This document shows positions 2,930 to 53,458 of a stretch of 64,000 bases of DNA, piece after piece. The stretch covers positions 73,085-137,084 of the forward strand of contig JAWPOC010000014.1 of assembly GCA_033345235.1 (NCBI GenBank), given 5' to 3'. The DNA is from Alphaproteobacteria bacterium. GTDB lineage: Bacteria; Pseudomonadota; Alphaproteobacteria; Rs-D84. Position 1 is the stretch's first letter; each line of letters starts with the position of its first letter. The position numbers and the translations under genes are program-made. A model generated the notes under the pieces. It ran no database searches, was not told the origin of the DNA, and saw nothing but the letters and a program-made list of their open reading frames with translations.

Positions 2930-3678
2930 TGACACGATATAAAGTAAATCTTGAATACGATGGAACAGATTTAATTGGTTGGCAAGAAAATCGCCAAGGT
3001 CCATCTGTACAATCTATTGTCAAAGACGCAATATATGGATTTTGTGGTGTGCGTCCAGATGTTGTCGGTGCAGGACGCACAGACGCAGGTGTTCATGCGA
3101 TTTCTATGACGGCGCATTTTGATTTGCCGGATTCCGCACATGATGCAAACACTGTTATGCGCGCGCTGAATTTTTATATGGCGGAAAAACCTGTCTCGGT
3201 ATTGGATTGTGAAATTGTATCAGATGATTTTAATGCACGTTTTGCGTGCAGTGCGCGTCATTACAAATATCGTGTTTTGAATCGCAGTGCATCACCAGTA
3301 TTGGAAAAAAATCGTGTTTATTGGGTGCCGCGTTCATTGGATGTTGATGCAATGCGTGCCGCTGCGGCCAAGTTGTTGGGAAATCATGATTTTACCAGTT
3401 TTCGTGCAACCCAGTGTCAGGCAAAATCTCCGATAAAAACATTGGATAAAATCGAGATAACAAAAATCGGTGATGAAATTATTTTTGAATTTTCTGCCCG
3501 TTCTTTCTTGCATCATATGGTGCGAAATATTGTTGGAACATTATTGGAAATTGGCTTGGGAAAACCATACGATATTGATGAAATATTAAATGCGAAAAAT
3601 CGTAGTGCCGCCGGTCCAACCGCACCGGCATGTGGGCTGTATTTTATTCGTGCGGATTATAATGCCAGCGACGATTAA
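2929..3678 (+). CDS. truA: tRNA pseudouridine(38-40) synthase TruA
   Basis: The GAGRTDAGVHA catalytic-Asp motif is present. The length is 249 aa. Confidence 0.9.
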   Translation: MTRYKVNLEYDGTDLIGWQENRQGPSVQSIVKDAIYGFCGVRPDVVGAGRTDAGVHAISMTAHFDLPDSAHDANTVMRALNFYMAEKPVSVLDCEIVSDDFNARFACSARHYKYRVLNRSASPVLEKNRVYWVPRSLDVDAMRAAAAKLLGNHDFTSFRATQCQAKSPIKTLDKIEITKIGDEIIFEFSARSFLHHMVRNIVGTLLEIGLGKPYDIDEILNAKNRSAAGPTAPACGLYFIRADYNASDD

Positions 3679-5590
3679 TTGGCGTATATTTAATATCTTT
3701 GTTTGGGTAAATTACAAAACCGCCACGCAGTACTTTGTGTGCGCACTGTTCTGAGTCTATATTAAAATAAGACACAACAAAATCGATGTTATCATCGTTA
3801 CATATCCGTTCAATATTATTCATCAGTGGGACAAATTTCTGGATGTATACCAGATTGAAATGTTCAGTGTTATATTCGTATATGCCTTTGTTATGTTTGC
3901 GGCGTTTGTTCTTTGATGTAATAGGCTCGTTATTTATTTTCTTCCATGTATCAAAAGCAAAATAATGATTTGATGCGCGCGATTTATTAAATTCCAACAG
4001 ACCGTCTGTACCAACGAAAGCAACCAATTCATTGTCGTGTGAAGAATAAAATACTGGTTTTGGCGTAATGTACGTAACAGTACATCCCAGAATAATAAAG
4101 ATTGTAAATATGATATAATTAACTTTGATTTTAATTGGCTTGATTAATATCAAAAATATAAATGCCGATATAAAACACATCAATGCAAAATTTGGAATAA
4201 ACGGAGTATTTATTTGTGCCATTGGTAATTGTGATATATGCTTTGCGATGCTAAAAGTTGTGTTATAAACACTGTCTGCCAGTGTTAATGGACAGACGAT
4301 TCCGAATGTTGCGGTTATCGTTCCGATTAAAATCAGTGGCATAATTATAAAAGAAAATATTGGTAATAATATCAAGTTGCCAAACAAACCGTATGTTGGC
4401 AGCTGACCAAAATGTACTGCAATAAAAGGCGCAGTAAATAACGATGCCACAGCAGATGTTAATAATGTCGCATAAATGATTTTCATTGTTTTACTGTGCG
4501 GCATTTTTGGTTTTGCATCCGTATATAACCAAACCAATCCAAATACTGCTGCAAAAGATAGTTGGAATCCAGCCTGCATCACGCAATGTGGGTTTATTAA
4601 AAAGATTATACAAAATGCCAATGCGATATTACGCATTGAAATTGCGCTGCGACCGATTATAAATGCAGCGAACACCAGTGTTGTCATTAAAAATGCGCGC
4701 ATTGTTGCGATGTCTGTACCAGATAAAAACAAGTAAAGCATCAGTCCAAACCATGCGCAAATTAATGCCGGAATTTTGGCAGGAATTCTGCGAGTGATAT
4801 ATGGTATCGAGCGAAAAATTAAATAAAATATCGCAAATAACCATCCACCAACCAGTGTCATATGAAATCCACTGATTGACCAGACGTGTCCGATGCCAGT
4901 TGCGTTCCATATTTCAGTGTCTGTGTCCGGAATTGCGCCTTTGTATCCCAGTACCAAAGTATCTACTAAAACAGAATTTGCCGCGTTGTGTAAATAATCG
5001 CGCACAGAATTTATATTATGTGAATCGCTGTGATTAATAACTGTAATTTCTTTTGCATAGCCTGTTGCAGTCAAGTTGTTAAAATATGCCCATCTTGCAT
5101 AATCAAATGTTTCTGGTGCGTACAAAGTGCTGGGGCGAAATAAAGTTGCTTTTAATTTAACTGTGTCACCGATGTTTGGGATGGTAATGTCACTATCCCC
5201 AGATACACGTATTGTTGCGTTACCTGTGCCTGCATTTATGTCATTGGCAGGAATGCGTATGTATATTCTGGATTTGTCCGCGGTATAGTCAATTGCATGC
5301 ACGCGCCCAGTCAAAGTTATATCACTAAAGCCATGTTTTATTTGCGGAGTGTTTATAACATCTGTAAAAGTCGCGGCATAAAAGAATCCGAATATAAAAA
5401 TTAATATAGTCCGAATAATATACGGTATTTTATTGATAAACAGACAAATAAATAATACAGGCGTTATAATATATGGGTATGGTAACACAGGTTCGTACGC
5501 CAGTGAAAAATACAATGCTGCGCCAGCCGCCATTATAAAAGGCAGGTACATAAATAAATTTTCTTGTTGAAAATCCAGCCATTTTTTCAT
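3644..5590 (-). CDS. comEC: ComEC/Rec2-family DNA internalization membrane protein (no C-terminal metallo-beta-lactamase domain)
   Basis: It is polytopic with many TM helices. It has a central extramembrane domain and an ISGFHMTLVGG motif matching the ComEC competence domain. Confidence 0.6.
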   Translation of the reverse strand: MKKWLDFQQENLFMYLPFIMAAGAALYFSLAYEPVLPYPYIITPVLFICLFINKIPYIIRTILIFIFGFFYAATFTDVINTPQIKHGFSDITLTGRVHAIDYTADKSRIYIRIPANDINAGTGNATIRVSGDSDITIPNIGDTVKLKATLFRPSTLYAPETFDYARWAYFNNLTATGYAKEITVINHSDSHNINSVRDYLHNAANSVLVDTLVLGYKGAIPDTDTEIWNATGIGHVWSISGFHMTLVGGWLFAIFYLIFRSIPYITRRIPAKIPALICAWFGLMLYLFLSGTDIATMRAFLMTTLVFAAFIIGRSAISMRNIALAFCIIFLINPHCVMQAGFQLSFAAVFGLVWLYTDAKPKMPHSKTMKIIYATLLTSAVASLFTAPFIAVHFGQLPTYGLFGNLILLPIFSFIIMPLILIGTITATFGIVCPLTLADSVYNTTFSIAKHISQLPMAQINTPFIPNFALMCFISAFIFLILIKPIKIKVNYIIFTIFIILGCTVTYITPKPVFYSSHDNELVAFVGTDGLLEFNKSRASNHYFAFDTWKKINNEPITSKNKRRKHNKGIYEYNTEHFNLVYIQKFVPLMNNIERICNDDNIDFVVSYFNIDSEQCAHKVLRGGFVIYPNKDIKYTPINRRWHYNPHE

Positions 5591-9307: not shown

Positions 9308-10243
9308 TTATTGTTGTTGTAATTCTTTAATACGTTGTTGTCTTTGTTCTGCTTCTTCCTTTTGTTTTCTGTATTGTTGCAAGGTTAATCCTTGTGCTTT
9401 TGCTGCTTTTCGTTCAGCTTCTAAATCGTCTTTTTTTGTTTGACGATCATTTTTCTTTTTTTCTTTTTCTTGTTGTTTTTTTGTTCTTTCTTCTTGTGCG
9501 CGACGTGCTTCTTCTTCGGCCAGTAACAAGTCCGATAATTCTTTTTCTCTTTTTAATCTCTCGTACCGTTCTTCGTCTGTTTCTTTTGGAACAGCAACAC
9601 CTACTTCATCTGGTACAGGTTTTGCATCGACAATATCTACGTTAGATTCAGTGGTATTGCACCATCCTTGGGATTCGCCTTTGGCGTTTTTTTGTAGATA
9701 GTAACCAGATTCGCATTCTGTCGCAGCGCATGATATTGTATCTGTGGTTTTGTTTTTACAGATGTATCTTCCAGCAGTTGCGTGTGCATTCTTTGCCAAA
9801 TCATCAGGTAAACATGGCTTGCCGCTATATAATGCACAGTTTGATGTTTGACCGGATTTTGTGTTTACTGTGCCACTGGCCTCTGTATTGTCATAACGGT
9901 TATTTTGGTTTTCTACCATTTCGTATAAGAAGTCGTCGCATAGCTTTTCGCTGGCAAATTCAGGTAGACTATATTGCTTTTTAGTCTTCAAAATGTTGCG
10001 ATATTCACAGCTGGATTTACAACATGCCCCCAGATCATACATATCGTGCACAGTGCCTTCATTTGCGGCTAAGCAGGCTAAAAATCGTGCTTTAAAGTCT
10101 TGTGGGTATTTGTATGCAGTCCAATTGAAAGTGTCAAATGTGTACAAAATAGTTTCTGTAGTTATTGCAGCTGTTGCAGGTGTTGCAAGTATGCTGCCCG
10201 CAATCAGACCAGATAAAATCATTGGTGTAAATTTCTTTTTCAT
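9308..10243 (-). CDS. secreted Cys-rich protein with Lys/Glu-rich coiled-coil C-terminus, hypothetical
   Basis: The start is MKKKFTPMILSGL with an AAGGAG RBS 8 nt upstream. It has a signal peptide and about 12 Cys. It ends in a charged KE-rich tail (EERTKKQQEKEKKKNDRQTKK). A TAATG overlap links it to the upstream gene. Confidence 0.5.
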   Translation of the reverse strand: MKKKFTPMILSGLIAGSILATPATAAITTETILYTFDTFNWTAYKYPQDFKARFLACLAANEGTVHDMYDLGACCKSSCEYRNILKTKKQYSLPEFASEKLCDDFLYEMVENQNNRYDNTEASGTVNTKSGQTSNCALYSGKPCLPDDLAKNAHATAGRYICKNKTTDTISCAATECESGYYLQKNAKGESQGWCNTTESNVDIVDAKPVPDEVGVAVPKETDEERYERLKREKELSDLLLAEEEARRAQEERTKKQQEKEKKKNDRQTKKDDLEAERKAAKAQGLTLQQYRKQKEEAEQRQQRIKELQQQ

Positions 10244-18668: not shown

Positions 18669-21173
18669 ATGATGTTACGTAAAATATTATTTGTGATTTT
18701 TGGGTTGTTTATATCTGTTAACGCATATGCGATTAAACCTGCATACATAGACCCCAATGGTCATGCAATAAATGTTCAATGGCTGCATGAATTTATAAAA
18801 CAAGAACATGGTATCGATATTCCATATGGTTCGGACTTAGATTCCCCGAAACAAGTTGTAAATATGGAATATATGTTGAAAATCGTGGACATTGCGAACC
18901 AGTATTTAAACAAAGATGCGCCGAATTGGGTTCGAACGACGTATGGGGAAAATCCGGAATATGCGACAAAACAGGTTGCAAACACTGCCGCCGGTATATA
19001 TTGTGTTCGTAATTTGATAGAGCATTATTATTTCACTGTAACGACGACGGCAGACACGACCAGTTTTGAATTTAAAATTGGTGCCGCCGGCACATATCAT
19101 GTTGATTGGGGGGATGGTACACGCGACCATTATGATAAAACAGATACAAATCTGCGAACGATATCACACACATTTGCGTCTGCAGGTGCTCATAAAATTC
19201 GCATTGGCGGATATTCCCGCGCATATGGTGGTAACGCCGCGATAAGTTTTTCAGGAAATGTCCAATTGGCGGGTATCGCAGGCAGTTTAGGCAAGATTTT
19301 TTCAACATTAAAACCATCTTCCAGCCCAAGATTTACCGCAACATTTCTAAATTGTTCTAATTTAGAAAGTGAAATCCCACCGGAATTATTTAGCGGTATT
19401 CATACTTATGCAGCCACAGCAATTTTTCAACACACATTCCAAAATTGTTCTAAATTAAGTGGTGAATTACCGTCAAAATTATTCAGCGGTATCAAAGGTA
19501 CTGCATCATGGATGTTTGCATATACTTTTTACGGTTGTCGCGGGTTATCTGGATCTATACCGCCCAGATTTTTTGGGAATTTATCTGGTTCATTACAGTT
19601 TTGTATGTTCCGAGGCGTATTTTATGGTTGTTCTGGATTAACAGGCACAATCCCAAATGATTTGTTTCATGGATTAACACAGCGTCCATCATGGCATTAT
19701 GAGTTGGGCTATGTTTTTGAAAGTGCTTTTATGTATTGTTCTGGTTTAAGCGGTTCAATCCCACCCGATTTATTCAGATTCAAAGATAATGTTCCCCCAG
19801 AACAAGTTATGTTTACAGATACTTTTAGCGGGTGCACAGGATTGTCAGGTGAAATCCCAGGCGAATTATTTGCATCGATACGTGGTGCACCTAAAAATTC
19901 TACGTTTGCGGCAACCTTTGCAGGGTGTAAGAATTTGACTGGAATCCACAAGGATTTATTCAAGTACATAGAAGGTGTCCCTGCAGCAAATATGTTTTCG
20001 GCTACGTTTTCAAATTGTTCCGGATTACAAGGCAGTATTCCGCCAGAACTGTTTGCAAAAATTTCAGGTAAACCAGCATCTGGTATGTTCCAATATACAT
20101 TTCGTGGATGTTCGAGCATAAGTGGTACAATACCGGCAAATTTATTCGGTACATATAATTTACCAGAACATGTTCCAGCACCAAGTATGTTTGCATATAC
20201 TTTTAGTGGGTGTAAAAATCTGACAGGTATTTCGCCCGATTTATTTCGCGGGATTCAGGGCGCACCTGCCGCTGATATGTTTTCAAACACGTTCGCAGAT
20301 TGTACAAATCTGCAGGCTATCCCAGTTGGACTATTTGATGACATATCTGGGCCGGCCGCCATCAGAATGTATCAAGCAACGTTCAAAGGTTGCACTAATA
20401 TGCAAGGGTATATACCTTCAAAATTCTTTGGTACTTTTACAGATGGTGTATCACAAGAAAGTGTCCCACAAATTAATATGTTTAATTCGACCTTTAGTGG
20501 TTGTACAAATCTGGGAAAACCCCTGTCGGATTCTGTGACCCCAGAATATATTTTGGCAGGTTATGCAATCCCAGCAGACTTATTCTGGGGTATCAAGGGA
20601 CAACCGGTCGGTGCAATGTTTGCAAGTACTTTTAGCGGTTGTGCAAATTTATCTGGTAACATACCAGAACTGTTATTTAAAGATATCCAAGGAACCCCAG
20701 CAGATAGTATGTATCAAGGTACGTTTGGCGGGTGTTCTGGGTTAAATGGTTCTATACCGCGCAAATTGTTTGGCGATATTGATGGTAATCCAATAAATAT
20801 GATGTTCCATGGTACTTTTAAGGGGTGCAGTGGTTTAAGTGGCGCAATCCCAGGGGATTTATTTGGAAATTTATGGGGTGCGCCTGCAACTTATATGTTT
20901 TACGATACATTTAACGGTTGCAGCGGATTGGAATCTGTCGAAGATGGTTTGTTTGGCTCTATTTCTGGCGATATGAAGTATTATATGTTTGCATGGACAT
21001 TTAATGGTTGTACGTCTTTGACGGGGGCGTCCCCAAAAGTATATGTCGCAGAAGAGGGCGTATACAAGTATATGTACGAAGTTTGGCCCAATGCCACAAA
21101 TGGGCAAGTCCCAGCAGCCTACAGGGGTACCAAATTTACAGACTGGGCACAAATTCCGGCCATATGGAAATAA
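18669..21173 (+). CDS. secreted protein with ~17 tandem ~30-aa BspA/LRR_5-like repeats
   Basis: It has a signal peptide MMLRKILFVIFGLFISVNAYA. The repeat consensus is TFsGCsnLsGsIPxxLFxxIxGxPAxxMFxx. The gene starts 11 nt after paralog A behind a GGGGGTGG RBS. A terminator follows at 21176-21200. Confidence 0.7.
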   Translation: MMLRKILFVIFGLFISVNAYAIKPAYIDPNGHAINVQWLHEFIKQEHGIDIPYGSDLDSPKQVVNMEYMLKIVDIANQYLNKDAPNWVRTTYGENPEYATKQVANTAAGIYCVRNLIEHYYFTVTTTADTTSFEFKIGAAGTYHVDWGDGTRDHYDKTDTNLRTISHTFASAGAHKIRIGGYSRAYGGNAAISFSGNVQLAGIAGSLGKIFSTLKPSSSPRFTATFLNCSNLESEIPPELFSGIHTYAATAIFQHTFQNCSKLSGELPSKLFSGIKGTASWMFAYTFYGCRGLSGSIPPRFFGNLSGSLQFCMFRGVFYGCSGLTGTIPNDLFHGLTQRPSWHYELGYVFESAFMYCSGLSGSIPPDLFRFKDNVPPEQVMFTDTFSGCTGLSGEIPGELFASIRGAPKNSTFAATFAGCKNLTGIHKDLFKYIEGVPAANMFSATFSNCSGLQGSIPPELFAKISGKPASGMFQYTFRGCSSISGTIPANLFGTYNLPEHVPAPSMFAYTFSGCKNLTGISPDLFRGIQGAPAADMFSNTFADCTNLQAIPVGLFDDISGPAAIRMYQATFKGCTNMQGYIPSKFFGTFTDGVSQESVPQINMFNSTFSGCTNLGKPLSDSVTPEYILAGYAIPADLFWGIKGQPVGAMFASTFSGCANLSGNIPELLFKDIQGTPADSMYQGTFGGCSGLNGSIPRKLFGDIDGNPINMMFHGTFKGCSGLSGAIPGDLFGNLWGAPATYMFYDTFNGCSGLESVEDGLFGSISGDMKYYMFAWTFNGCTSLTGASPKVYVAEEGVYKYMYEVWPNATNGQVPAAYRGTKFTDWAQIPAIWK

Positions 21174-21588
21174 TAAAAATGCCCAAATTGGGCATTTTTA
21201 TTTTATTGTTTTATATAATCCAGATGGGGTTTGGATGGTTATATTGCGCAGTCCAATCGCGCGCTTGCACAATTGTACGCATGTCCAAATATCGCGTGTA
21301 TTTATATTGTTTAACATATCACCCGTCAGATATACAAATCGCCATCCATATCGCTGTAAGATTCTTATATCTCGCATATTTAATTTGATTTTTACGATAT
21401 TATTATGTGATACAAATTGATGCATTACCAATGTGTTATTATGCACAGATATTGGCGCACAGTGCTTTATTTTCCCGCATAATATTTTCGGCAGTATTTT
21501 CGATGTTTTATCAGAAAAAGCGATGATTATCATATTTTATCCTTAGTTTTAAAAGTATCGCCGGTGTATTTGCCGGCGATGTTTTCAA

Positions 21589-21930
21589 TTAATCAATCCA
21601 GCCATGTTTTTGTGCTGCGTTTTGCAGAACTTGCATTGCGCGATTCCATTGATCCGCAGCGCGATTTTCACTCCATATATGCTGATGTGGGGCGCGACGT
21701 TTATCGCCGAATTTTTTCATTACACATAATTGTTCTTCGGTAATTTTCCCAGACAGATATAATTTTGTAATCATTGTTTCCACATCTAATATTTCACATG
21801 GGCGGCGTGTTTGTGTTGCGTGCATTCTGGTAAAATTATTTCGAACAGATTTGGAATATAAAAACCAAAACCACATTTGTTCGGCTGATTGAAATTTTTC
21901 GACAGATGCTATTGTCATTGCAGAGTTCAT
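21589..21930 (-). CDS. hypothetical protein (113 aa, no signal peptide)
   Basis: The ORF has its own terminator hairpin at 21550-21585. I recognise no motif. Confidence 0.35.
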   Translation of the reverse strand: MNSAMTIASVEKFQSAEQMWFWFLYSKSVRNNFTRMHATQTRRPCEILDVETMITKLYLSGKITEEQLCVMKKFGDKRRAPHQHIWSENRAADQWNRAMQVLQNAAQKHGWID

Positions 21931-22218
21931 TTTTTCTTTCTCCTTTGGTTAATTTAATTCGTTTACATATATAGTCTAAGAAAAGATTCCTGTTAATCAC
22001 TACAACCGTCAGTTGAAACGTGAATCGGAAAATAGATTCGGTTTTGAAATTTATGTGTGTGTGCACGAATCGTTGTTTTCTTGTTGACCATATGTTTTGA
22101 TTTAATAAAAAAAAGTGCGCGATATTGCGCACAAAAAGTATTGTTTTTTGTATGTTTTTATATTGTGTTTTATCCTTTTGGTTTGTATATTAAATAACCC
22201 GCCGTTCGGCGGGTTTTG

Positions 22219-24669
22219 TTATATCAACGGCGGGAAACAGTCGCCACTGCCTTCGGGACAGCACGCATATTGACTGCCGGTTGCTTCATCGATATATCCC
22301 ATATCTGTGTAGACTTCGCCTGCACAGCAACCATTTGCATCAGGTAAATTACCATCTGTGCATGTCAGTGTACCTGCGCCTGCAGATTCTTCGGCCGGTA
22401 TATCTGACGCAGCTGGTTTTGGTGCAGGTTCAAATGGATTTTGAATACTGCCATCTTGGTTATATGTCAGATCCAAAATTTGTTCATTATAAGTCTTTGA
22501 ATATTTACCGCCTGTGGCTGCAACACTTTTTTCATTCGAGCTGTCTTGTTGATTTTGGAACAGCGCTTCTTGTTTTGCATTATTTTTCGCCTGATATTGT
22601 GACGACTGGCAATAGAACAAGATTGTTCGATAATCGTATCCATCGCAGCTGCTGGGGTTGCATCTGCTTTGATTAACTGTACCGTCATCATTACAATATT
22701 CATTAACTGCAAACGAACGAACCTGACCAACCCAAGAGCCATCATCGGCTGGGGTTGTACTATGTGCCCACCCATCCAATCGACTTTCGTTTCCATAGCC
22801 CAAAGAACATTTTTTTCCATCACTTTCTGGGCCACAAGATGCGATTAAATCAACAGGTGAATATACTGTGATACGTGTGCCAGCCGCGATTGTAAATGGT
22901 GGAACAGTGTTATCCATCATATCGACCAATAATTTTTGTGCAACCTGATTCCATGCAGTTATAATCTGATTTTTTGCCAATTCAGAAGAACGTACCGTAC
23001 CGCTTTGCACAACAGTATTGTTATCCAAGTCAATTTGATTAACAAATGCATCTGACACCGGGGCAATCAAATTTACTGCCGCAGGCACAATTGCTGTTAA
23101 CATTGGCATAAAGAATTGTTCCAGATAATCTGAACTGCCATAACCTGGGATACCTGTGCGGCCTTGGGCGTCGCCTGAAAAAGGAGAGTTCCCATCTTTA
23201 AAATTATATTCAACACCATTTGGCAATATAAATTGGTACCAATTTATATTCATACGTCCCACAGATGTATATGGCCCTGGCAATTCACCAGAAATATACC
23301 CCATTAATAATGTTCCGGTTGGGATTATAACATTGCGTCCATCATCAGAATAAACGTTTCTGTCGACGGTTGCACGAACAGGCAAGTGGTTGTTTTTTAA
23401 TGCCTGTGGATCTGCGCGAACATCTGACACAATTGTTGCAGGAATTGGTTTGAATTGACGCAATATAAATTGTCTGTCGAATGCGCGTGTTGATTTTACG
23501 GCGGACCCCATACCAGACCCAAGGTATTTTTTGTTATCTTCTTCTGTTTTGCGAACAAATTCAGACAGTGGTCTGTCATCGCCAATATGTCTGGCGCCCG
23601 CGGATGCAGGCAATTCGTCGGGCGTGACATCCAATTGTTGTGCGCGATATTCTGTTTTTACTGCGGGTGCATTAGATAATGTTGGCAATATTCCAGATAT
23701 AACAGTACTGAAACCCATATGTTCTGCATCTGTGCCAATTTTTTTCCCAGGGTTATTAATATCTGTGATAATACCATTGTCCGGATTATAGATACCGGTT
23801 GGTCTGGTACAATTTGTGTCAGAGAAAGGATGGAACTTATATGTTCCCGCCTCTGGCTTAATCCAGCCAATTTGACGACCGAAATTGTCATATCCTGCAA
23901 ATGCGAAATCAGAACATGCCTCTGGTGGGCGGGTATACACAGGTTCTGCGGGACGTCCAAAAGACCCAACCGATGGCGCAATAGATTCTATTTCGTTTTT
24001 GATTGTGCGTTTTATATTGCTTGGTTCATATTCTTCTTCATAAGATGCGTCGTATGAAAAATCATCATATGAATCAATTGGTTCATCTTCGTATTCTGTA
24101 TCGTATGTCGATGTGTACGAAGATTTATAGTCTGGTTCTTTTTCCACAGGTGCAGGCTGTGATGTTACAGGCGCTGTTGCACCCAATGTAACGACAATCT
24201 TAGATGTTTTTTTCATTGCATCTGTTTCATCTGCGTCATGCCATGTAACATAAATAATAGTCTGTTCCACAGGGGATGCCACAGTTGGTTCATACTTTAA
24301 ATTTATTGTACAATATTGCTGCGGTGTGACCAAGAAATCATTACAAATGTTCATCACAGTCAGACCTTTGATAGCCCTTTCTTGTTTTACATCGATAACT
24401 TTAACAGGCGCAGTTGCAGATATATTGATTTTTTTTTCTTGGATTTGATTAACCAACATATCAGACCAATTTATAACATCTGGGATAATATTTATCTCTG
24501 CTGCGGCGCGGTTAATGTTTGCAAGTTCTGTTTTTTTATTGTTTTTTCCAGACATTAACAAAGTTATCAATATTATCACCACAACAAACGCTGCAACCAG
24601 CAATAACCACTGGACGCGTTTAGGTGTATTTGCGCGCATATCTGAAAACTGTTTTTTTAATTTTCCCAT
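22219..24669 (-). CDS. VirB10/TrbI-like type IV secretion protein with long N-terminal region and Cys-rich C-terminal extension
   Basis: It has an N-terminal TM anchor and an acidic Y/D/E-rich linker. The core RATVDRNVYSDDGRNVIIPTGTLLMGYISG...GRMNINWYQFILPNGVEYNF...VPPFTIAAGTRITVYSPVDL aligns to the A. tumefaciens VirB10 C-terminal barrel. It is 816 aa, versus about 380-480 typically. A terminator hairpin follows at 22196-22216. Confidence 0.75.
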   Translation of the reverse strand: MGKLKKQFSDMRANTPKRVQWLLLVAAFVVVIILITLLMSGKNNKKTELANINRAAAEINIIPDVINWSDMLVNQIQEKKINISATAPVKVIDVKQERAIKGLTVMNICNDFLVTPQQYCTINLKYEPTVASPVEQTIIYVTWHDADETDAMKKTSKIVVTLGATAPVTSQPAPVEKEPDYKSSYTSTYDTEYEDEPIDSYDDFSYDASYEEEYEPSNIKRTIKNEIESIAPSVGSFGRPAEPVYTRPPEACSDFAFAGYDNFGRQIGWIKPEAGTYKFHPFSDTNCTRPTGIYNPDNGIITDINNPGKKIGTDAEHMGFSTVISGILPTLSNAPAVKTEYRAQQLDVTPDELPASAGARHIGDDRPLSEFVRKTEEDNKKYLGSGMGSAVKSTRAFDRQFILRQFKPIPATIVSDVRADPQALKNNHLPVRATVDRNVYSDDGRNVIIPTGTLLMGYISGELPGPYTSVGRMNINWYQFILPNGVEYNFKDGNSPFSGDAQGRTGIPGYGSSDYLEQFFMPMLTAIVPAAVNLIAPVSDAFVNQIDLDNNTVVQSGTVRSSELAKNQIITAWNQVAQKLLVDMMDNTVPPFTIAAGTRITVYSPVDLIASCGPESDGKKCSLGYGNESRLDGWAHSTTPADDGSWVGQVRSFAVNEYCNDDGTVNQSRCNPSSCDGYDYRTILFYCQSSQYQAKNNAKQEALFQNQQDSSNEKSVAATGGKYSKTYNEQILDLTYNQDGSIQNPFEPAPKPAASDIPAEESAGAGTLTCTDGNLPDANGCCAGEVYTDMGYIDEATGSQYACCPEGSGDCFPPLI

Positions 24670-24703
24670 TACAATAACCCACCGATTTAGTTTTTATTAT
24701 GCT

Positions 24704-26257
24704 TTATTGCATTCTGACAACACTGCATGTTTCTTGGCCACCAGTGTACTTTATCAGTTTGTCACATAATGTTTGTGCAGCACTAATATCAGATATTGGG
24801 CCAATGCGCAGACGGTACATTCTGGCGGCAGATGATGCAGTACCTAAATCGCCGACACCTTCGGCATCAACTGCAAAGAATACCATATCTTTGTACGGTG
24901 TTAATATACCGCTGCCTTCACTGCCGCTAAATTTAGCCAACAGATTTGTCCAATGATCTTCTAAGGCTTTGACGTTTGTATCAGACTTTAATTCAACTGC
25001 AACGCCAACCTGGTTACTGGAAATCAAAGGAATGTTTGTTTGTGGTAAATATGAACCCGCAGTATTTCTGACAGTTGGCAACATATTTACAACACTGCCC
25101 GAAGAGGTTGTTGGTTGTGGCGCGGTATACGTGCCATAGCCCGCAGGCATATAGTAACCTGCACCTGTTACAGGGTTAACAGTTCCTGTATTTCCCATAT
25201 ACATTGGTGTGCCGGTATAATTCATACCCATGCTCATTGCGGCCATATCTTGTGTGTATGCGATGTTGTTCAAAGATTGACCAGATAACATACTTTGTGC
25301 AACATTTGCTTCGGCCAAGGCCATAACAGATGCAGTGTCCGCAATCAAGAATGGTTTTTCGCGTCTTTTGATACAGACAATTCTTTGACCGCTGCGCAAA
25401 ACCATATCGCCAACAGCTTCGACGATTAACAGTCTGCCATCTTCGCCATCTGTACGGAATCCAACAGGTGATTCCCCACCTTCGACCAGCAATGAAACAA
25501 CCGGTCTTTGTGTCATAGATATAACCTTGTCACCAAAGTCAATATATGTAAAGATTCTGTCGCGCCATACGCGTTCTGGGGCAATGACATAATCATCTGG
25601 ATTTGGAACAAATATATCTAAATCAAAACGGAATTCAGATGGATCGATTTTCATAGATTTAATCCAACCATAATCTTCGCCATCGACACCAACTGTATTT
25701 GTTGTTTTTGCCGCCTTGTTAAAGATTGACTTTGCACTGCCTGTTGCAGATGTTGTTGCAGCCATCGGCAATTTGCCGTTGCCATCCAATGTGATGTCAA
25801 CCTGAGAATATGTGATTTCACTGGAATTAGATGGTTCGCTGCGTAAATAAAATATATATTTGTTACCAGATTGACCTGTTACAATCATATTTGTGTCAGA
25901 ACCCTGATTTGACCCTTCTGGTGATATAAACATTGTGCGATCGCCTGGGGTGGCTTGGATGTCGAATAAACCGCTGTTACCGACAATTGCGTCAGAAATT
26001 TGTTCGCCATTTGGCAAGTTAATCATCGTAACCATACCGTTACGTAACTTGATTGGTAATACAGAACCCGCAGACCAAGCCAATTGAGCGTATCCAGGTT
26101 TTACACTGCCGGCAGCCATATTTGCATTTGGGTTATCCCACGCAGATTGAATACCGTAATTCATACCGTACTCATTTGCGTTTGCGCCACATATAACCAA
26201 TGCACCCATCATGCAAAATAATGGTAAATTAAATCTGATTCTATTTAACAAAGTCAT
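24704..26257 (-). CDS. VirB9/TrbG-like secretion protein fused to a C-terminal SPOR peptidoglycan-binding domain
   Basis: The signal peptide is MTLLNRIRFNLPLFCMMGALVICGANA, and the start is chosen at 26257 with a GGAAGGA RBS. The N-domain motif is TNMIVTGQSGNKYIFYLRS (VirB9 TNLxVxTxxRxYxFxL). The C-domain is RVWRDRIFTYIDFGDKV...LLIVEAVGDMVLRSG. A Ser/Gly/Thr-rich linker precedes a terminal SPOR-like segment MYRLRIGPISDISAAQTLCDKLIKYTGGQETCSVV. Confidence 0.75.
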   Translation of the reverse strand: MTLLNRIRFNLPLFCMMGALVICGANANEYGMNYGIQSAWDNPNANMAAGSVKPGYAQLAWSAGSVLPIKLRNGMVTMINLPNGEQISDAIVGNSGLFDIQATPGDRTMFISPEGSNQGSDTNMIVTGQSGNKYIFYLRSEPSNSSEITYSQVDITLDGNGKLPMAATTSATGSAKSIFNKAAKTTNTVGVDGEDYGWIKSMKIDPSEFRFDLDIFVPNPDDYVIAPERVWRDRIFTYIDFGDKVISMTQRPVVSLLVEGGESPVGFRTDGEDGRLLIVEAVGDMVLRSGQRIVCIKRREKPFLIADTASVMALAEANVAQSMLSGQSLNNIAYTQDMAAMSMGMNYTGTPMYMGNTGTVNPVTGAGYYMPAGYGTYTAPQPTTSSGSVVNMLPTVRNTAGSYLPQTNIPLISSNQVGVAVELKSDTNVKALEDHWTNLLAKFSGSEGSGILTPYKDMVFFAVDAEGVGDLGTASSAARMYRLRIGPISDISAAQTLCDKLIKYTGGQETCSVVRMQ

Positions 26258-26285
26258 ACCAATCCTTCCCATTTTTTGTTTTCTT

Positions 26286-26951
26286 TTAGTTCTGCATAAA
26301 TCCTGTATCCAACGGGTCGCCATTTTCAGATATTATCTCATATTCTGAAACACGCATGCCCAACGGATTTTCGATTTTGTTAGCCCATTTTATTTTTGTG
26401 TTATCTTGTGTCTCAATTTTTATACGTATTGTATAATCTTTTTGCGTTGCAGGTCTAGTAGAATCTTTACAAAAATAGCGAAAAGTTACCTGATAAGTAT
26501 CTTTGCTGATTGGTAACGGTTCGCCATCAAAGAAAACGTCGCATTGTAAATTGTAACTCGGCGTATCGTTCATAATAGTATTAAATGCAGATGTGTTGAT
26601 AAAATCAGTGTACACGCCATCCGTAGACATGTTTCTGACAAAGCCATCAACGCTGTTCCATTTTTTTGTCATTACCTTAGCATTACTGCGGATTTCGTTT
26701 CTGTGTTTTACATATTCGCGCACCAAAGATTTCTTGTAAATATCCAAATGTTCACTTTTTGGCGGCATTTGTACCAGCTTTATATCCTGATCAGCGCGCG
26801 TTGTGGTTGTTAAAAAGAATATTTGTGGTCTGTTCAGTGGAAACATTTTGTCCAGTGTAAACACCAATGCGCCCAATACAACCAATGACATTGCAAGCAC
26901 GAATGTTAACAGTCTTGATATTAAAACTGGCGGTTTTACGCGGTTTTGCAC
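26286..26951 (-). CDS. VirB8-like protein (bitopic, NTF2-like periplasmic domain)
   Basis: It has a short cytoplasmic N-terminus, one TM helix and a ~170-aa periplasmic domain containing LVREYVKHRNEI. The architecture and gene order (B8-B9-B10) support the call. Confidence 0.5.
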   Translation of the reverse strand: MQNRVKPPVLISRLLTFVLAMSLVVLGALVFTLDKMFPLNRPQIFFLTTTTRADQDIKLVQMPPKSEHLDIYKKSLVREYVKHRNEIRSNAKVMTKKWNSVDGFVRNMSTDGVYTDFINTSAFNTIMNDTPSYNLQCDVFFDGEPLPISKDTYQVTFRYFCKDSTRPATQKDYTIRIKIETQDNTKIKWANKIENPLGMRVSEYEIISENGDPLDTGFMQN

Positions 26952-40667: not shown

Positions 40668-40951
40668 TTGCCAGTTTTATGGATATCAGTTATAATTTGA
40701 GTGTCACTGGGGTCATCCAGTGATGGGGTGTAACGACCCGTACACTAAGCGTCTGATGCGTAATCAGTGCGCCACTGGCGTATTTTTTATACTCAGATGA
40801 AAAAAACCTCCTGACAATGTAAAGGGTCAGGAGGGCTGCGAATATATTGAATAAGCACACAGTTCTTAGTGATTGTCGTTAACCTCCTGACCACATTGAA
40901 TAATTAATGCGTGTGGTTTCTTTTTTTAAGATAAAAGAAAGGAATCAGGGG
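40668..40951 (+). promoter_or_regulatory. sigma70-type promoter plus conserved structured 5' leader (copy B)
   Basis: The -35 TTGCCA (40668-40673), a 17-nt spacer and the -10 TATAAT (40691-40696) are present. It has the same hairpin set as copy A. Its loop sequences differ but the stems are kept. Confidence 0.5.
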
Positions 40952-41155
40952 ATGAGACTGTTTATATTTTTAATTCTAATTTTCACATCATCGGCATCGG
41001 CCGCCAGTGTGGCATCTGTGCGTTATGTTGACGAATGCGTCGCAACCAAGGTCAGTAAACTGGAGGGTACAGAAAACGAAATGGCCGGCACATATAATGT
41101 TGGTGGTAAAATAACTGTCAACAGCCCCAAAACGCCATCGTTAGAATCTTTATAG
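40952..41155 (+). CDS. small secreted protein, paralog B
   Basis: It begins MRLFIFLILIFTSSASAASVASVRYVDECVATKVS, near-identical to the N-terminus of paralog A. The C-terminus has diverged. Confidence 0.6.
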   Translation: MRLFIFLILIFTSSASAASVASVRYVDECVATKVSKLEGTENEMAGTYNVGGKITVNSPKTPSLESL

Positions 41156-46052: not shown

Positions 46053-46316
46053 GTGAGGGTAATTGTATCGATTTTTGCCATACTGTTATCGGTGCCGGCG
46101 TTTGCTGCCGACCCATTGGATGTTATTATTGATGCGGTTGCCGGCAAGAGTTACGCTGACAACAGTACAAATAACAAGGTTGATGTCCGCGAAGGTACCG
46201 TAAACAATATGCTGGGGCAATATGATGTTGTTAAACCCGGCATAATGACCGTAGAAATGCCGACATTGCCTGAAATATTAATCCTTGAAGAAGTTACAGA
46301 AGAAGCAACTGCATAA
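46053..46316 (+). CDS. small secreted protein, paralog C (divergent)
   Basis: It has a signal peptide MRVIVSIFAILLSVPAFAA. The motif EGTVNNMLGQYDVVKPGIMTVEMPTLPE aligns with EGTNNQMKGIYNVTGSGYMDVPTPDLPD of paralog A. Confidence 0.55.
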   Translation: MRVIVSIFAILLSVPAFAADPLDVIIDAVAGKSYADNSTNNKVDVREGTVNNMLGQYDVVKPGIMTVEMPTLPEILILEEVTEEATA

Positions 46317-51862: not shown

Positions 51863-53458
51863 TTGTCAGTATTAAAAAAAGTTGCTTTTTGGATTTTTTC
51901 TTTACCGCTGATGGGCTGTACAACAGTGCCAACATCAATGAATGATAATGATGCCAGACTGGAAAACTATGCGCCAAAGATTACCAAGGCTGATTTTGCC
52001 TATAATCCGTATGAAACGCCAATTGCGCGTGTTTATGCCACAGAGTTAAAGTCTGGGGATGATGTATCTGGGGCGACCCTTATCCAAGATGGTCTGTCTG
52101 CATTTGTGGTTCGATCTGCGTTTGCGCGTATGGCAACCAAGACAATCGATTTGCAGACGTATATATACAGTAATGACTTTTCATCGAAAATATTAATCGC
52201 AGAATTAAAAAATGCTGCTGATCGCGGGGTCAAGGTCAGAATACTGTTGGATGATTATGGAACCAAGTCTGATATTGTCGACGTTATGTTGCTGAATCAG
52301 CATCCTAATATCGAAGTCAAAGTCTTTAACGCAGTACCAAATCGTACCAAGATTTTATATTATCCGCAATTTTTGACTGATTTTAATCGACTGAATTCGC
52401 GTATGCATAATAAATTGTTTATCGTTGATAATGTTGCATATATCACAGGCGGCAGAAATGTCGGCAGTAATTATTTTTATCCAGAAACAGCGTCTAACTT
52501 TTCAGATACAGATGTTTTGTTTATCGGTGATATGACGCGCTTTGCGACGGACAGTTTTAATGAATATTGGCAACATCATTTGTCGATTCCTGCGTCTGTG
52601 TTCCCAAAGGCCACATCCAAGAAAGCGCTGTATAAACTGGAAAGGTCGTTTACAGAAATCAGTCGCAAAAATATGGATAATGCACAAATGTACAATAACA
52701 TTATCAATATGGCGCAACAAGAATATCAAGACAGAAAATTTGATTTTTCATGGGGACGTGGAAAATTCTTGGCTGATCCGCCTGAAAAAGTCGAAATGAA
52801 AATGGCTGAAAAAGAATGTTATCGTGGCGATATTATCAAGGCATTACAGCATTTGTGGGCCCAGACAACAGATTCTGTGTATATGTCTGCGGCGTACTTT
52901 GTCCCGGGGCAGGGCGGTTTAGAACATATCTTGCGTGAGGAAAATTCAGGTGTGCATATGACGATTGTTACAAATTCTTTGGCGTCAACAAATGCACCAA
53001 CTGTGTATGCTAAATGGGAAAAATACAGAAAGCGTCTGATTGAATCTGGGGCAGATGTATATGAATTTATGGTGTCGGCAGAAAACTTGCGCGGGAAAGA
53101 ACATGATCGTGAACGTAAACAGTCCAGTTTTTCTGTCTTGCATAGTAAAACGATGGTCTTTGATGATGATATTTCATGGATTGGCAGTTTTAATTTGGAT
53201 CCACGCAGCGCGTATTATAATACTGAAAACGTGGCGATATTTGAAAGTCGTGAATTTGCAGATAAATTACGCACGATGATTGTCGAAGATACTCAAACAT
53301 CATGGCATGTGACATTGGATGGTAATGGCAATCCAGTATGGTCTGGATTTCGTGGCAATGAAACAAAACCGCGTGTTTATAACTATGCCCCAGATACCAG
53401 TATATTCAGACGTATTTGGAAATCGATTTGTAATTTGGTACCAGAAAAATTTGTATAA
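51863..53458 (+). CDS. phospholipase D-family lipoprotein (two HKD motifs; cardiolipin-synthase-like)
   Basis: It has a lipobox-like LPLMGC and two HxK(x)4D motifs (HNKLFIVD, HSKTMVFD). Confidence 0.75.
   Translation: MSVLKKVAFWIFSLPLMGCTTVPTSMNDNDARLENYAPKITKADFAYNPYETPIARVYATELKSGDDVSGATLIQDGLSAFVVRSAFARMATKTIDLQTYIYSNDFSSKILIAELKNAADRGVKVRILLDDYGTKSDIVDVMLLNQHPNIEVKVFNAVPNRTKILYYPQFLTDFNRLNSRMHNKLFIVDNVAYITGGRNVGSNYFYPETASNFSDTDVLFIGDMTRFATDSFNEYWQHHLSIPASVFPKATSKKALYKLERSFTEISRKNMDNAQMYNNIINMAQQEYQDRKFDFSWGRGKFLADPPEKVEMKMAEKECYRGDIIKALQHLWAQTTDSVYMSAAYFVPGQGGLEHILREENSGVHMTIVTNSLASTNAPTVYAKWEKYRKRLIESGADVYEFMVSAENLRGKEHDRERKQSSFSVLHSKTMVFDDDISWIGSFNLDPRSAYYNTENVAIFESREFADKLRTMIVEDTQTSWHVTLDGNGNPVWSGFRGNETKPRVYNYAPDTSIFRRIWKSICNLVPEKFV

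What the first reader, a model, noticed from the sequence alone, without database searches (positions are those of the whole stretch)
22219..26951. Isolated virB8-virB9-virB10-like operon with non-canonical domain architectures
Three co-directional genes have VirB8-like, VirB9-like and VirB10-like cores. I see no VirB4, VirB11, VirD4, VirB6, VirB2 or relaxase within the window. The terminator sits 22 bp past the VirB10 stop, and the operon abuts the tRNA-Trp-secE-nusG block. The VirB10 homolog is 816 aa, versus 380-480 typically. It has a ~200-aa acidic/Tyr-rich spacer (YTSTYDTEYEDEPIDSYDDFSYDASYEEEYE) and a ~200-aa Cys-rich C-terminal extension beyond the barrel. Either this is a scattered Rickettsiales-style rvh T4SS with a modified core complex, or it is a repurposed outer-membrane-core sub-assembly.
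Basis: partly seen in the sequence, partly recalled or inferred. Interest (0 to 1): 0.7.

Follow-up and report, generated by a model that had tools for sequence, protein, structure and literature searches.

The report
Stand-alone VirB8-VirB9-VirB10 operon in Enterousia
A tiny-genome, uncultured gut bacterium (Candidatus Enterousia) keeps only the envelope-spanning scaffold genes (VirB8, VirB9, VirB10) of a type IV secretion system at a fixed housekeeping site, with unusual added domains and no motor genes nearby; whether the motors sit elsewhere in the genome could not be tested here.

Summary
Three tightly spaced minus-strand genes (26951..22219) encode VirB8-, VirB9- and VirB10-like proteins, all above Pfam thresholds and with VirB9/VirB10 folds.

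The window is chromosomal core of Candidatus Enterousia (order Rs-D84, Alphaproteobacteria; genomes about 0.75-1.0 Mb). The trio is intact in all 85 sequences examined, and 209 species-representative genomes carry a relative. It nearly always lies between tRNA-Trp-secE-nusG and yidC. B9 is as conserved as RecR and KsgA.

No VirB2/3/4/6/7/11/D4 was found in the 64-kb window or within 10 kb in 84 related loci.

B10 has a TM helix, an Ig-like (ASH/PapD) domain, a short variable acidic linker (about 55 aa, not 200), a two-Cys beta domain, a barrel with near-invariant antenna helices, and an Enterousia-only tail with 10 invariant Cys. B9 carries a SPOR-like C-terminal domain that is ancestral to its rare subfamily.

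Relatives outside the clade form a series: full conjugative clusters (Microvirga, Sphingosinicella), then chromosomal B7-B8-B9-giantB10-B11, then the bare trio.

Most likely this is the core of a split, domesticated T4SS. An ATPase-less derivative is not excluded, because whole genomes could not be read. I rate it a new variant of a known kind.

The parts
26286..26951 (-). virB8-like gene (221 aa; N-terminal TM helix plus VirB8/NTF2-like periplasmic domain); GTG start behind RBS AAAGGGGAG
   Evidence: Pfam VirB8 E=1.2e-9, 38.8 bits above cut-off 23.2; start and RBS read directly; present in 82/85 Enterousia sequences, the 3 missing being contig ends; median 51% identity
24704..26257 (-). virB9-like gene (517 aa from Met23): signal peptide, conserved QxAWDNP..NM..GS.KPGY motif, VirB9 NTD and CTD, conserved linker, SPOR-like C-terminal domain
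   Evidence: Pfam CagX 1.1e-21; NCBI protein P0121 is 100% identical and starts at Met23; RBS GGGAAGGA; Foldseek TrwF VirB9-NTD TM 0.77 at 2.4 A, plus Xanthomonas VirB9, DotH, CagX; median 75% identity across species
24707..25003 (-). SPOR-like C-terminal domain of VirB9 (residues 419-517; beta-alpha-beta-beta-alpha-beta; two conserved Cys)
   Evidence: Pfam SPOR 22.3 bits vs cut-off 21 when scanned alone; precomputed SPOR in P0127, P0229, P0240; AF2 topology; RlpA SPOR 6i09 TM 0.61; hhalign of the diverse profile vs the Dac SPOR profile gives 74% probability, E=2.7e-5, 73 columns. The shallow Enterousia-only profile gave no support.
22219..24669 (-). virB10-like gene (816 aa)
24550..24621 (-). 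VirB10 inner-membrane TM helix (residues 17-40), preceded by a conserved 16-residue cytoplasmic tail
   Evidence: AF2 helix 17-40; P16, W21, L23, A27 invariant in 92 sequences
24160..24501 (-). VirB10 Ig-like (ASH/PapD/MSP-type) beta-sandwich, residues 57-170
23980..24147 (-). acidic/Tyr-rich linker (residues 175-230), species-specific; stands in for the canonical Pro-rich region
   Evidence: Disordered in the model; not conserved and Pro/Glu-rich in the consensus of relatives; composition
23716..23922 (-). small two-Cys beta domain of VirB10 (residues 250-318; C252 and C287 invariant)
   Evidence: pLDDT about 85; invariant columns; HMM found only in Enterousia and the L091/L092 lineages
22840..23502 (-). 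VirB10 beta-barrel (residues 390-610) including the antenna helices (512-547 and 562-587; nt 22909-23136)
   Evidence: AF2 secondary structure; structural matches to outer-membrane core complex VirB10s; residues 514-608 nearly invariant
22222..22839 (-). Cys-rich C-terminal tail of VirB10 (residues 611-816; 10 invariant Cys; terminal CC..CCP..C motif), specific to Enterousia
   Evidence: Invariant Cys columns; HMM hits only Enterousia B10s; no Pfam family; low to moderate model confidence
22115..22215 (-). two hairpins ending the operon (22215..22196 without a T-tract; 22132..22115 followed by T8)
21589..21930 (-). orf113: conserved small cytoplasmic protein of unknown function with its own RBS; usually travels with the trio
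   Evidence: 67% median identity; directly downstream of B10 in 14/17 loci where yidC is not adjacent; no Pfam, NCBIfam or PHROG hit
21198..21533 (-). orf111: second conserved small ORF of unknown function downstream of orf113
   Evidence: 50% median identity in 60 loci; stays with B10 in 13/17 rearranged loci; no family hit

Best explanation
This is the envelope-spanning scaffold of a chromosomally domesticated, vertically inherited type IV secretion system. It belongs to a rare alphaproteobacterial VirB/Trb-like (P-type) subfamily. Shown: the three proteins are VirB8, VirB9 and VirB10 homologues, intact and under strong purifying selection at a fixed housekeeping locus throughout Ca. Enterousia. 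Inferred from the anatomy: VirB10 is anchored in the inner membrane by its TM helix and crosses the periplasm through an Ig-like domain, a flexible linker and a small disulfide-bonded domain. It forms the outer-membrane channel with its two near-invariant antenna helices. VirB9 builds the surrounding ring and ties it to peptidoglycan through its SPOR-like C-terminal domain. VirB8 forms the inner-membrane-proximal ring. No VirB7 lipoprotein is encoded nearby; the Enterousia-specific Cys-rich tail of VirB10 may take over its stabilising role (speculative). Inferred and not shown: the channel is powered by a VirB4-type ATPase and an inner-membrane VirB3/6 platform encoded elsewhere in the roughly 0.9-Mb genome, as a split system in the way of Rickettsiales. 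It probably serves contact-dependent exchange with a partner cell or host, or DNA uptake.
For: Homology and fold. Operon structure with 28- and 34-nt gaps and RBSs. Clade-wide conservation: 209 species genomes; the trio is intact in all 85 sequences examined apart from three loci cut by a contig end; fixed synteny; B9 at 75% identity against RecR/KsgA at 80% and YidC at 64%. Conserved cytoplasmic tail and TM of B10, and retention of VirB8 (an inner-membrane-complex component), argue for an inner-membrane partner. Descent from complete systems: Microvirga yunnanensis, GCA_036704275.1 and Sphingosinicella p1 clusters run VirB2-B3-B4-..-B8-B9-B10-B11-D4. Splitting already exists in the nearest relative whose flanks are held: L094 has B7-B8-B9-B10-B11 with no B2-B6 or D4 within the 9-10 kb held on either side; the L089 contig shows the same B8-to-B11 order but carries no flanking sequence. 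VirB4 of this subfamily often escapes annotation (no Pfam hit in L088; 'hypothetical protein' in Sphingosinicella), so silence in the genome papers is weak evidence of absence. All T4SSs described so far have VirB4 (PMC12857230).
Against: No VirB2/3/4/6/7/11/D4 in 64 kb here or within 10 kb in 84 species. The closest out-group lineage with readable downstream sequence (L092/L093) also lacks an adjacent B7 and B11; L091 lacks an upstream B7 and B8, and its contig ends just after B10. This fits progressive loss as well as it fits relocation. The two genome surveys of Enterousia/Rs-D84 mention no secretion system. The rest of the genome was not seen.
Confidence: 0.55

Rival explanations
1. ATPase-less derivative. 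The lineage has lost VirB4, VirB11, VirD4, VirB7 and the pilus genes, and kept only VirB8/9/10 as a stand-alone trans-envelope conduit or anchor. The channel would be gated or energised by something else, for example a type-IV-filament-like system, ComEC, or the proton-motive force acting through the TonB-like VirB10. It would be used to import DNA or metabolites from a partner or to hold cells together.
For: Local absence of every other T4SS gene in 85 sequences. There is a reduction series across relatives: full cluster, then B7-B8-B9-B10-B11, then B8-B9-B10. The new B10 domains appear in step with the loss of adjacent B7 and B11. Genomes of 0.75-1.0 Mb lack standard transporters and a partner-dependent lifestyle has been proposed (PMC12306168). 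Prepilin-like proteins lie next to the trio in L033 and L067.
Against: VirB4 is the signature subunit of every T4SS described (PMC12857230). VirB8 normally belongs to the VirB3/4/6 inner-membrane complex. Only about 7% of the genome was inspected. The known chimeric systems keep VirB4/VirD4 and replace the outer parts, not the reverse.
Confidence: 0.25
2. ComB-like DNA-uptake machine. The trio is the B8-B9-B10 part of a competence T4SS (VirB4 elsewhere, no VirB11 or VirD4) that brings double-stranded DNA into the periplasm. ComEC then carries it across the inner membrane, supplying nucleotides to a cell with poor biosynthesis.
For: ComEC is encoded 17 kb away (3644-5590; TIGR00361 at 3.4e-38) and stays syntenic in relatives. 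In out-group L094 the B7-B11 cluster lies between comM and comEC. ComB10 is among the sequence and fold matches. No VirB11 or VirD4 is adjacent, as in ComB (PMC12857230). Two JGI annotators named homologues 'ComB9'.
Against: The ComB10 matches are weaker than the generic VirB10, CagY or TraF matches. ComEC is nearly universal and the whole region is syntenic housekeeping, so proximity says little. L094 retains VirB11, unlike ComB. No ComB2-4 or ComB6-7 was seen. Prepilin-like genes suggest another possible uptake route.
Confidence: 0.15
3. Decaying remnant of an integrated conjugative element that inserted next to tRNA-Trp, with no present function.
For: Adjacency to a tRNA gene; the ancestors are conjugative clusters.
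Against: The ORFs are intact in all 85 sequences examined apart from contig-end truncations. B9 is as conserved as RecR and KsgA. GC is 40-42%, like the genome. No integrase, relaxase or repeats are present. The trio lies on the 5' side of the tRNA. The same site is used across more than 60 species.
Confidence: 0.02

Closest known systems
Conjugative VirB/Trb-like T4SS clusters of alphaproteobacterial plasmids and ICEs (Microvirga yunnanensis chromosome locus L086; Sphingosinicella sp. BN140058 plasmid p1, NZ_CP035502.1)
   Same: Same rare VirB9 subfamily: 32-39% identity over the core, a long VirB9 and, in Microvirga (P0282), the two-Cys SPOR-like C-terminal domain. Same B8-B9-B10 gene order. 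Only 14 of 72,556 plasmids and 464 representative clusters carry this subfamily.
   Different: Those clusters are complete (VirB2, B3, B4, B6-like and VirB11, VirD4, with a KSPCAC VirB7-like lipoprotein in Microvirga and a relaxase or helicase) and sit on mobile elements. Their VirB10 is 548-631 aa, and the VirB10 tested (L086, 588 aa) gave no hit to the Ig-like, two-Cys or Cys-rich-tail models.
Rickettsiales vir homolog (rvh) T4SS
   Same: A chromosomal, vertically inherited T4SS in reduced-genome Alphaproteobacteria, with genes split over several loci (established knowledge). Out-groups L089 and L094 show a similar B8(-B8)-B9-B10-B11 block.
   Different: In rvh, virB8-9-10-11-virD4 are contiguous and several components are duplicated. 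Here B11 and D4 are not adjacent, no duplication is seen at this locus, and the host is order Rs-D84 rather than Rickettsiales.
Helicobacter pylori ComB DNA-uptake T4SS (ComB8-ComB9-ComB10 with ComEC)
   Same: B8-B9-B10 are contiguous without VirB11 or VirD4. The ComB10 fold and sequence are among the matches. ComEC is present in the genome.
   Different: comB6-comB7 precede comB8 in H. pylori, and comB2-4 form a second operon; neither was seen here. ComB9 and ComB10 lack the SPOR-like, Ig-like and Cys-rich domains.
Helicobacter pylori Cag T4SS CagX (VirB9) and CagY (VirB10)
   Same: Best PDB sequence hit and top Foldseek hit for B10. Oversized VirB9 (522 aa) and VirB10 homologues with added domains.
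   Different: No Cag-specific partners (Cag3, CagT, CagM). The added domains are unrelated. Cag is a complete, ATPase-driven effector system on a pathogenicity island.
Xanthomonas citri X-T4SS core complex (VirB7 with an extra N0 domain)
   Same: An example of an outer-membrane core complex decorated by an extra periplasmic domain. Its VirB9 and VirB10 are among the best structural matches.
   Different: The decoration is on VirB7 rather than on VirB10 or VirB9, and the system is complete.

Membership tests
Type IV secretion system (Gram-negative VirB/D4 type) | VirB4 ATPase, the signature subunit of all described T4SSs | not testable with these tools
   None in the 64-kb window or within 10 kb in 84 loci.
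Type IV secretion system (Gram-negative VirB/D4 type) | VirB9 homologue with NTD and CTD | tested here: met
   Pfam CagX 78 bits; NTD fold TM 0.77 to TrwF. The CTD is supported by sequence only, because the model is poor there.
Type IV secretion system (Gram-negative VirB/D4 type) | VirB10 homologue: N-terminal TM, periplasmic linker, C-terminal barrel with a two-helix antenna | tested here: met
Type IV secretion system (Gram-negative VirB/D4 type) | VirB8 homologue | tested here: met
   Pfam VirB8 38.8 bits above cut-off 23.2. No PDB sequence hit.
Type IV secretion system (Gram-negative VirB/D4 type) | VirB7 lipoprotein completing the outer-membrane core complex | tested here: not met
   No small lipoprotein ORF in or around the operon. 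The subfamily's KSPCAC[LI]Q motif and out-group VirB7 sequences find nothing in the window or 84 loci. A copy elsewhere in the genome is not excluded.
Type IV secretion system (Gram-negative VirB/D4 type) | VirB11 and VirD4 ATPases; VirB2/3/5/6 | tested here: not met
   Not in the window or flanks. These are optional in some T4SSs (ComB, Ptl, Trw; PMC12857230). The genome-wide status is unknown.
Rickettsiales rvh T4SS | Contiguous rvhB8-B9-B10-B11-D4 block | tested here: not met
   B10 is followed by terminators, orf113, orf111 and yidC.
Rickettsiales rvh T4SS | Host in the order Rickettsiales; duplicated B4/B6/B8/B9 genes | tested here: not met
   The host is Ca. Enterousia, order Rs-D84. Single B8 and B9 at this locus. 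Paralogues elsewhere are untestable.
ComB DNA-uptake T4SS | comB6-7-8-9-10 operon plus comB2-3-4; no VirB11 or VirD4; ComEC partner | tested here: inconclusive
   B8-9-10 are contiguous without B11 or D4, and ComEC is present. No B6 or B7 lies upstream, and B2-4 were not seen. The ComB10 model scores 44 bits against a cut-off of 300.
SPOR domain (PF05036) in VirB9 | Score above the Pfam gathering threshold | tested here: inconclusive
   19.4 bits in the full protein (below the cut-off of 21); 22.3 bits for the isolated C-terminus; precomputed hits in 3 of 120 relatives.
SPOR domain (PF05036) in VirB9 | beta-alpha-beta-beta-alpha-beta RNP-like fold and profile similarity to genuine SPOR domains | tested here: met
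   AF2 topology at pLDDT 55-75; RlpA SPOR TM 0.61, although PII-like folds score similarly; hhalign 74% probability, E=2.7e-5, over 73 of 85 columns. Peptidoglycan binding was not tested.

The most novel reading that the evidence does not exclude
Enterousia and its sister lineages have no VirB4 at all. Under that reading the VirB8-VirB9-VirB10 trio, with its Ig-like, two-Cys and Cys-rich additions and a peptidoglycan-anchoring SPOR-like VirB9, is the first T4SS-derived envelope machine that works without the T4SS ATPases. It would be the mirror image of the known chimeras that keep VirB4/VirD4 and swap the outer parts. It would serve as the import, export or attachment conduit of an ultra-reduced, partner-dependent gut bacterium that lacks ordinary transporters.
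Probability: 0.25. Interest if true: 0.85.

Novelty: new variant of a known kind. Interest (0 to 1): 0.55.

Why it matters
Enterousia (order Rs-D84) is a widespread, uncultured gut and rumen lineage. Its genomes are about 0.75-1.0 Mb, it has no respiration or standard transporters, and its lifestyle is unknown but presumably depends on a partner. A T4SS scaffold that is as conserved as core housekeeping genes is one of the few concrete leads to how these cells interact with a partner or host.

For T4SS biology the finding gives three things:
- A natural reduction series, from a full conjugative cluster, through B7-B8-B9-B10-B11, to B8-B9-B10.
- A little-noticed VirB9 subfamily with a SPOR-like domain that may anchor the complex to peptidoglycan.
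- A VirB10 that gained three domains of different evolutionary ages.

If VirB4 proves to be absent, this would break the rule that every T4SS has VirB4.

Tried and rejected
Tried without result:
- Literature searches for VirB8/9/10 with SPOR, RF32, Rs-D84 and Enterousia found no description of this system.
- The Enterousia genome paper has no supplements held and mentions no secretion system. The 2023 Enterousia paper is not held.
- Extending the window with edge proteins gave only 4.8 kb beyond the right end, with no T4SS genes (sodB, mdh/ldh, cvpA). The left end is not on record.
- The metagenome scan with out-group VirB11 failed with a tool error and still consumed the cap.
- Looking up P0121 to name the source record failed.
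- A shallow-profile hhalign of the B9 C-terminus against SPOR gave no support. It was superseded by the diverse profile.
- The B9 AF2 model is poor (pLDDT 48) because the alignment is too conserved.

Considered and rejected:
- Decaying ICE remnant: the ORFs are intact (truncated only at contig ends), strongly conserved and compositionally like the rest of the genome.
- Membership of Rickettsiales rvh: the gene order and the taxon do not fit.
- The 834-aa LRR gene as part of the system: it is a strain-specific insertion, absent from the 84 Enterousia loci compared.
- Large unknown ORFs next to the trio in rearranged loci as hidden T4SS parts: eight of the ten tested are AcrB, an outer-membrane efflux protein, an ABC transporter, NrdD, GyrA, a weak PilV-like hit, a weak phage tape-measure hit and a long secreted protein; two of about 400-450 aa have no family hit and turned out to have prepilin-like N-termini.
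- Rfam found no regulatory RNA.
- No VirB7 candidate in the intergenic gaps.


Full report
**What is there.** Three minus-strand ORFs occupy 26951..22219. Pfam assigns them to VirB8 (38.8 bits, cut-off 23.2), CagX/VirB9 (78 bits, cut-off 34.2; residues 80-320) and TrbI/VirB10 (64.2 bits, cut-off 35; residues 409-604). NCBIfam agrees, but far below its equivalog cut-offs, so the proteins are divergent. The junctions read as an operon:
- B8 starts at GTG 26951, behind AAAGGGGAG.
- B9 starts at ATG 26257, 28 nt after the B8 stop, behind GGGAAGGA. An identical NCBI protein of 517 aa (P0121) starts there too, which removes the apparent overlap with B8.
- B10 starts at ATG 24669, 34 nt after the B9 stop.

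A hairpin begins 4 nt after the B10 stop but has no T-tract. A stem followed by T8 lies at 22132..22115.

**Isolation.** The window is ordinary chromosomal core. On one side lie def, fmt, truA, comEC, pyrG, gapR, pyk, a Dac-SPOR carboxypeptidase, recR, ksgA, kefB, lspA and yidC. On the other lie tRNA-Trp, secE, nusG, rplKAJL, rpoBC, plsX, mraZ, adk, rpsA, tig and proS. Family scans of every unassigned ORF found no T4SS component. No ORF has a secretion-type P-loop. tblastn with out-group VirB2/3/4/6-position/7/11/D4 proteins found nothing in the window or in 84 related loci. Rfam adds only tRNAs.

**Organism and conservation.**
- *Homologues.* The B10 protein has more than 120 full-length homologues of 771-835 aa at 50-74% identity in uncultured Alphaproteobacteria MAGs.
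- *Species spread.* A scan of one genome per species found 209 genomes with a relative. The best 80 are 'Candidatus Enterousia' and unnamed gut or rumen Alphaproteobacteria.
- *Host biology.* Enterousia (order Rs-D84) has genomes of about 0.75-1.0 Mb without a TCA cycle, respiration, flagella or standard transporters. A partner-dependent lifestyle has been proposed, and no secretion system is mentioned (PMC12306168).
- *Synteny.* The order nusG-secE-tRNA-Trp | B8-B9-B10 | orf113 | orf111 | yidC-lspA-kefB-ksgA-recR holds in 62 of 84 loci. The 834-aa LRR gene in this window is a local insertion.
- *Integrity.* B10 and B9 are present in all 85 sequences. B8 is missing only from the three loci that a contig end cuts inside B9.
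- *Identity to the window.* Median identity is 75% for B9, 52% for B10 and 51% for B8, against 80% for RecR and KsgA, 68% for LspA and 64% for YidC.
- *Conclusion.* This is not a decaying island.
- *Small downstream ORFs.* orf113 (67% identity) and orf111 (50%) stay directly downstream of B10 in 13 of 17 loci where yidC is no longer adjacent (orf113 alone in a fourteenth), and are absent in three species. They have no family assignment.

**Anatomy of B10** (alignments; AlphaFold2 model, mean pLDDT 64):
- A conserved cytoplasmic tail and a TM helix (residues 17-40).
- A disordered linker (172-244). Its acidic/Tyr-rich part is only about 55 residues, is not conserved, and is Pro/Glu-rich in relatives, so it corresponds to the canonical Pro-rich region.
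- A small beta domain (250-318, pLDDT about 85) with invariant C252 and C287.
- A second disordered stretch.
- A tail (611-816) with 12 Cys, 10 of them invariant, ending in a CC..CCP..C motif. The tail has no Pfam match and is modelled with low confidence.

**Anatomy of B9.** The N-terminal domain matches the VirB9 NTD of R388 TrwF (TM 0.77, 2.4 A). It also matches Xanthomonas VirB9, DotH and CagX. The model is poor for the rest of the protein, because the alignment is 79% identical on average.

The last roughly 100 residues fold as beta-alpha-beta-beta-alpha-beta. The evidence that this is a SPOR-like domain is:
- Pfam SPOR scores 22.3 bits (cut-off 21) on the isolated segment.
- Three relatives carry a precomputed SPOR hit.
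- The RlpA SPOR domain is a fold match at TM 0.61, though PII-like folds score about the same.
- A diverse profile of this domain aligns with the SPOR profile of the neighbouring carboxypeptidase over 73 columns, at 74% probability and E=2.7e-5.
- The shallow Enterousia-only profile had given nothing.

I call the domain SPOR-like with moderate confidence. Peptidoglycan binding is inferred, not shown.

**Where it comes from.** An exhaustive search of 1.84 billion representative proteins found only 464 with E<=1e-3 to B9, so this is a small, distinct VirB9 subfamily. Many members, including ones from high-GC organisms, end in the same two-Cys C-terminal domain. Only 14 of 72,556 plasmids carry a relative, almost all from Alphaproteobacteria. 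The genomic contexts form a series:

| Lineage | B9 identity to window | Gene content at the locus |
|---|---|---|
| Microvirga yunnanensis (L086), GCA_036704275.1 (L087, L088), Sphingosinicella plasmid p1 | 32-39% over the core (tblastn against Microvirga sp. VF16 and Sphingosinicella plasmids) | TrbC, VirB3, VirB4, two ORFs, B8, B9, B10, VirB11, VirD4, plus a helicase (relaxase in Sphingosinicella); a small KSPCAC lipoprotein precedes B8 in Microvirga and an ORF of similar size in L087 |
| L094 | 46% | comM, B7, B8, B9, B10 (1507 aa), B11, gltX, comEC; no B2-B6 or D4 within the 9-10 kb held on either side |
| L089 | 40% | B8, B7, B8, B9, a 997-aa ORF, B10 (1628 aa), B11 |
| L092/L093 | 51% | rpsB-tsf, then B8, B9, B10 (733 aa) and a small secreted ORF; no B7 or B11 |
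| L091 | 44% | B9 and B10 (663 aa) among housekeeping genes, then the contig ends |

HMMs of the B10 sub-domains date the additions:
- The Ig-like domain is shared with the B10 proteins of L094, L092 and L091 and with the 997-aa protein next to B10 in L089.
- The two-Cys domain is shared only with L091 and L092.
- The Cys-rich tail is Enterousia-only.

The VirB7-like lipoprotein shared by L086, L089 and L094 is absent, in six-frame searches, from all Enterousia sequences held.

**Interpretation.** It is shown that the trio consists of VirB8/9/10 homologues, that it descends from complete T4SSs, that it is fixed at a housekeeping locus, and that it is under strong constraint. From the anatomy I infer the following:
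- B10 spans from the inner membrane to an outer-membrane pore made by its antenna helices.
- B9 forms the surrounding ring and anchors it to the cell wall.
- B8 forms the inner-membrane-proximal ring.

The conserved cytoplasmic tail of B10 and the retention of B8 point to an inner-membrane partner. VirB4 is the signature subunit of every T4SS described (PMC12857230). The nearest B11-bearing relative whose flanks are held (L094) already has a split system. VirB4 of this subfamily often goes unannotated. So the most likely reading is a split, domesticated T4SS whose ATPase and inner-membrane genes lie elsewhere (confidence 0.55).

The rival readings are:
- *ATPase-less derivative (0.25).* This fits the reduction series and the step-wise gain of B10 domains just as well.
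- *ComB-like DNA uptake feeding ComEC (0.15).* This is a plausible function. ComEC lies 17 kb away, the L094 cluster sits between comM and comEC, and no B11 or D4 is adjacent. The support is circumstantial.
- *Non-functional remnant.* This is effectively excluded.

**Limits.** Only about 7% of one genome, plus 10 kb on each side of the trio in 84 others, was seen. The metagenome scan was lost to a tool error. The whole-genome T4SS census is therefore the decisive missing test.

**Verdict.** I rate this a new variant of a known kind, of moderate interest. The interest would be high if VirB4 proves to be absent.

Noticed in passing
L067:11119-15994 (minus) and L033:17339-22209 (minus): In two rearranged Enterousia species, a cluster lies about 2.8-3.9 kb downstream of B10. 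It encodes three 397-451-aa proteins with type-IV-prepilin-like N-termini (..RG|SMLVELLL.., ..RG|ASVMEVLL.., ..RG|NFLLQALL..). One has a weak PilV/Shufflon_N hit. A 1058-1163-aa secreted protein lies directly next to B10. The published survey reports no type IV pili in Rs-D84.
   Followed up: partly
window 21589-21930 and 21198-21533 (minus): Two small conserved ORFs of unknown function (orf113 at 67% identity, orf111 at 50%) follow the operon. They mostly stay attached to it when the locus is rearranged. Neither has a family hit or a signal peptide.
   Followed up: partly
window 18451-21173 (plus): A 68-aa secreted ORF and an 834-aa BspA-type leucine-rich-repeat protein are inserted between yidC and orf111 in this strain only. 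The small ORF has a near-identical paralogue at 40907-41155 and a more distant one at 46053-46316.
   Followed up: partly
L094:7164-21015: In an out-group alphaproteobacterium the B7-B8-B9-B10-B11 cluster lies between comM (Mg-chelatase-like) and comEC. This is suggestive of a link to DNA uptake. In the window, comEC (3644-5590) is 17 kb from the trio.
   Followed up: partly
L094:11563-16086; L089:3622-11535: The out-group VirB10 homologues are giant (1507 and 1628 aa). The L089 one is preceded by a 997-aa protein that carries the TM helix and the Ig-like domain. They have faint 'Bflower' repeat hits, reminiscent of the repeat-expanded CagY.
   Followed up: no
L088:6309-8753; L095 (NZ_CP035502.1):5994-8414: The proteins at the VirB4 position in this T4SS subfamily (814 and 806 aa) have no Pfam hit on record or are annotated 'hypothetical protein'. 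Standard annotation can therefore miss VirB4 in these systems.
   Followed up: no
window 51863-53458 (plus): A PLD-family lipoprotein (lipobox LMGC) hits cardiolipin synthase models and, more weakly, the NucT nuclease of Helicobacter.
   Followed up: no
window 48916-51678, 9308-11265, 57695-59215 (minus): Several large secreted or outer-membrane proteins have little or no family assignment: a 920-aa protein with a Cys-rich C-terminal half, adjacent 317- and 340-aa secreted proteins, and a 506-aa OMP with a Protochlamydia Pom hit. These are possible surface-interaction proteins of this reduced-genome bacterium.
   Followed up: no
L086:7189-7365; L089:1022-1237; L094:9028-9219: Small lipoproteins upstream of VirB8 share a ..DP.GIG..P..LKKSPCAC[LI]Q.. 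motif. This looks like the VirB7 equivalent of this T4SS subfamily.
   Followed up: partly
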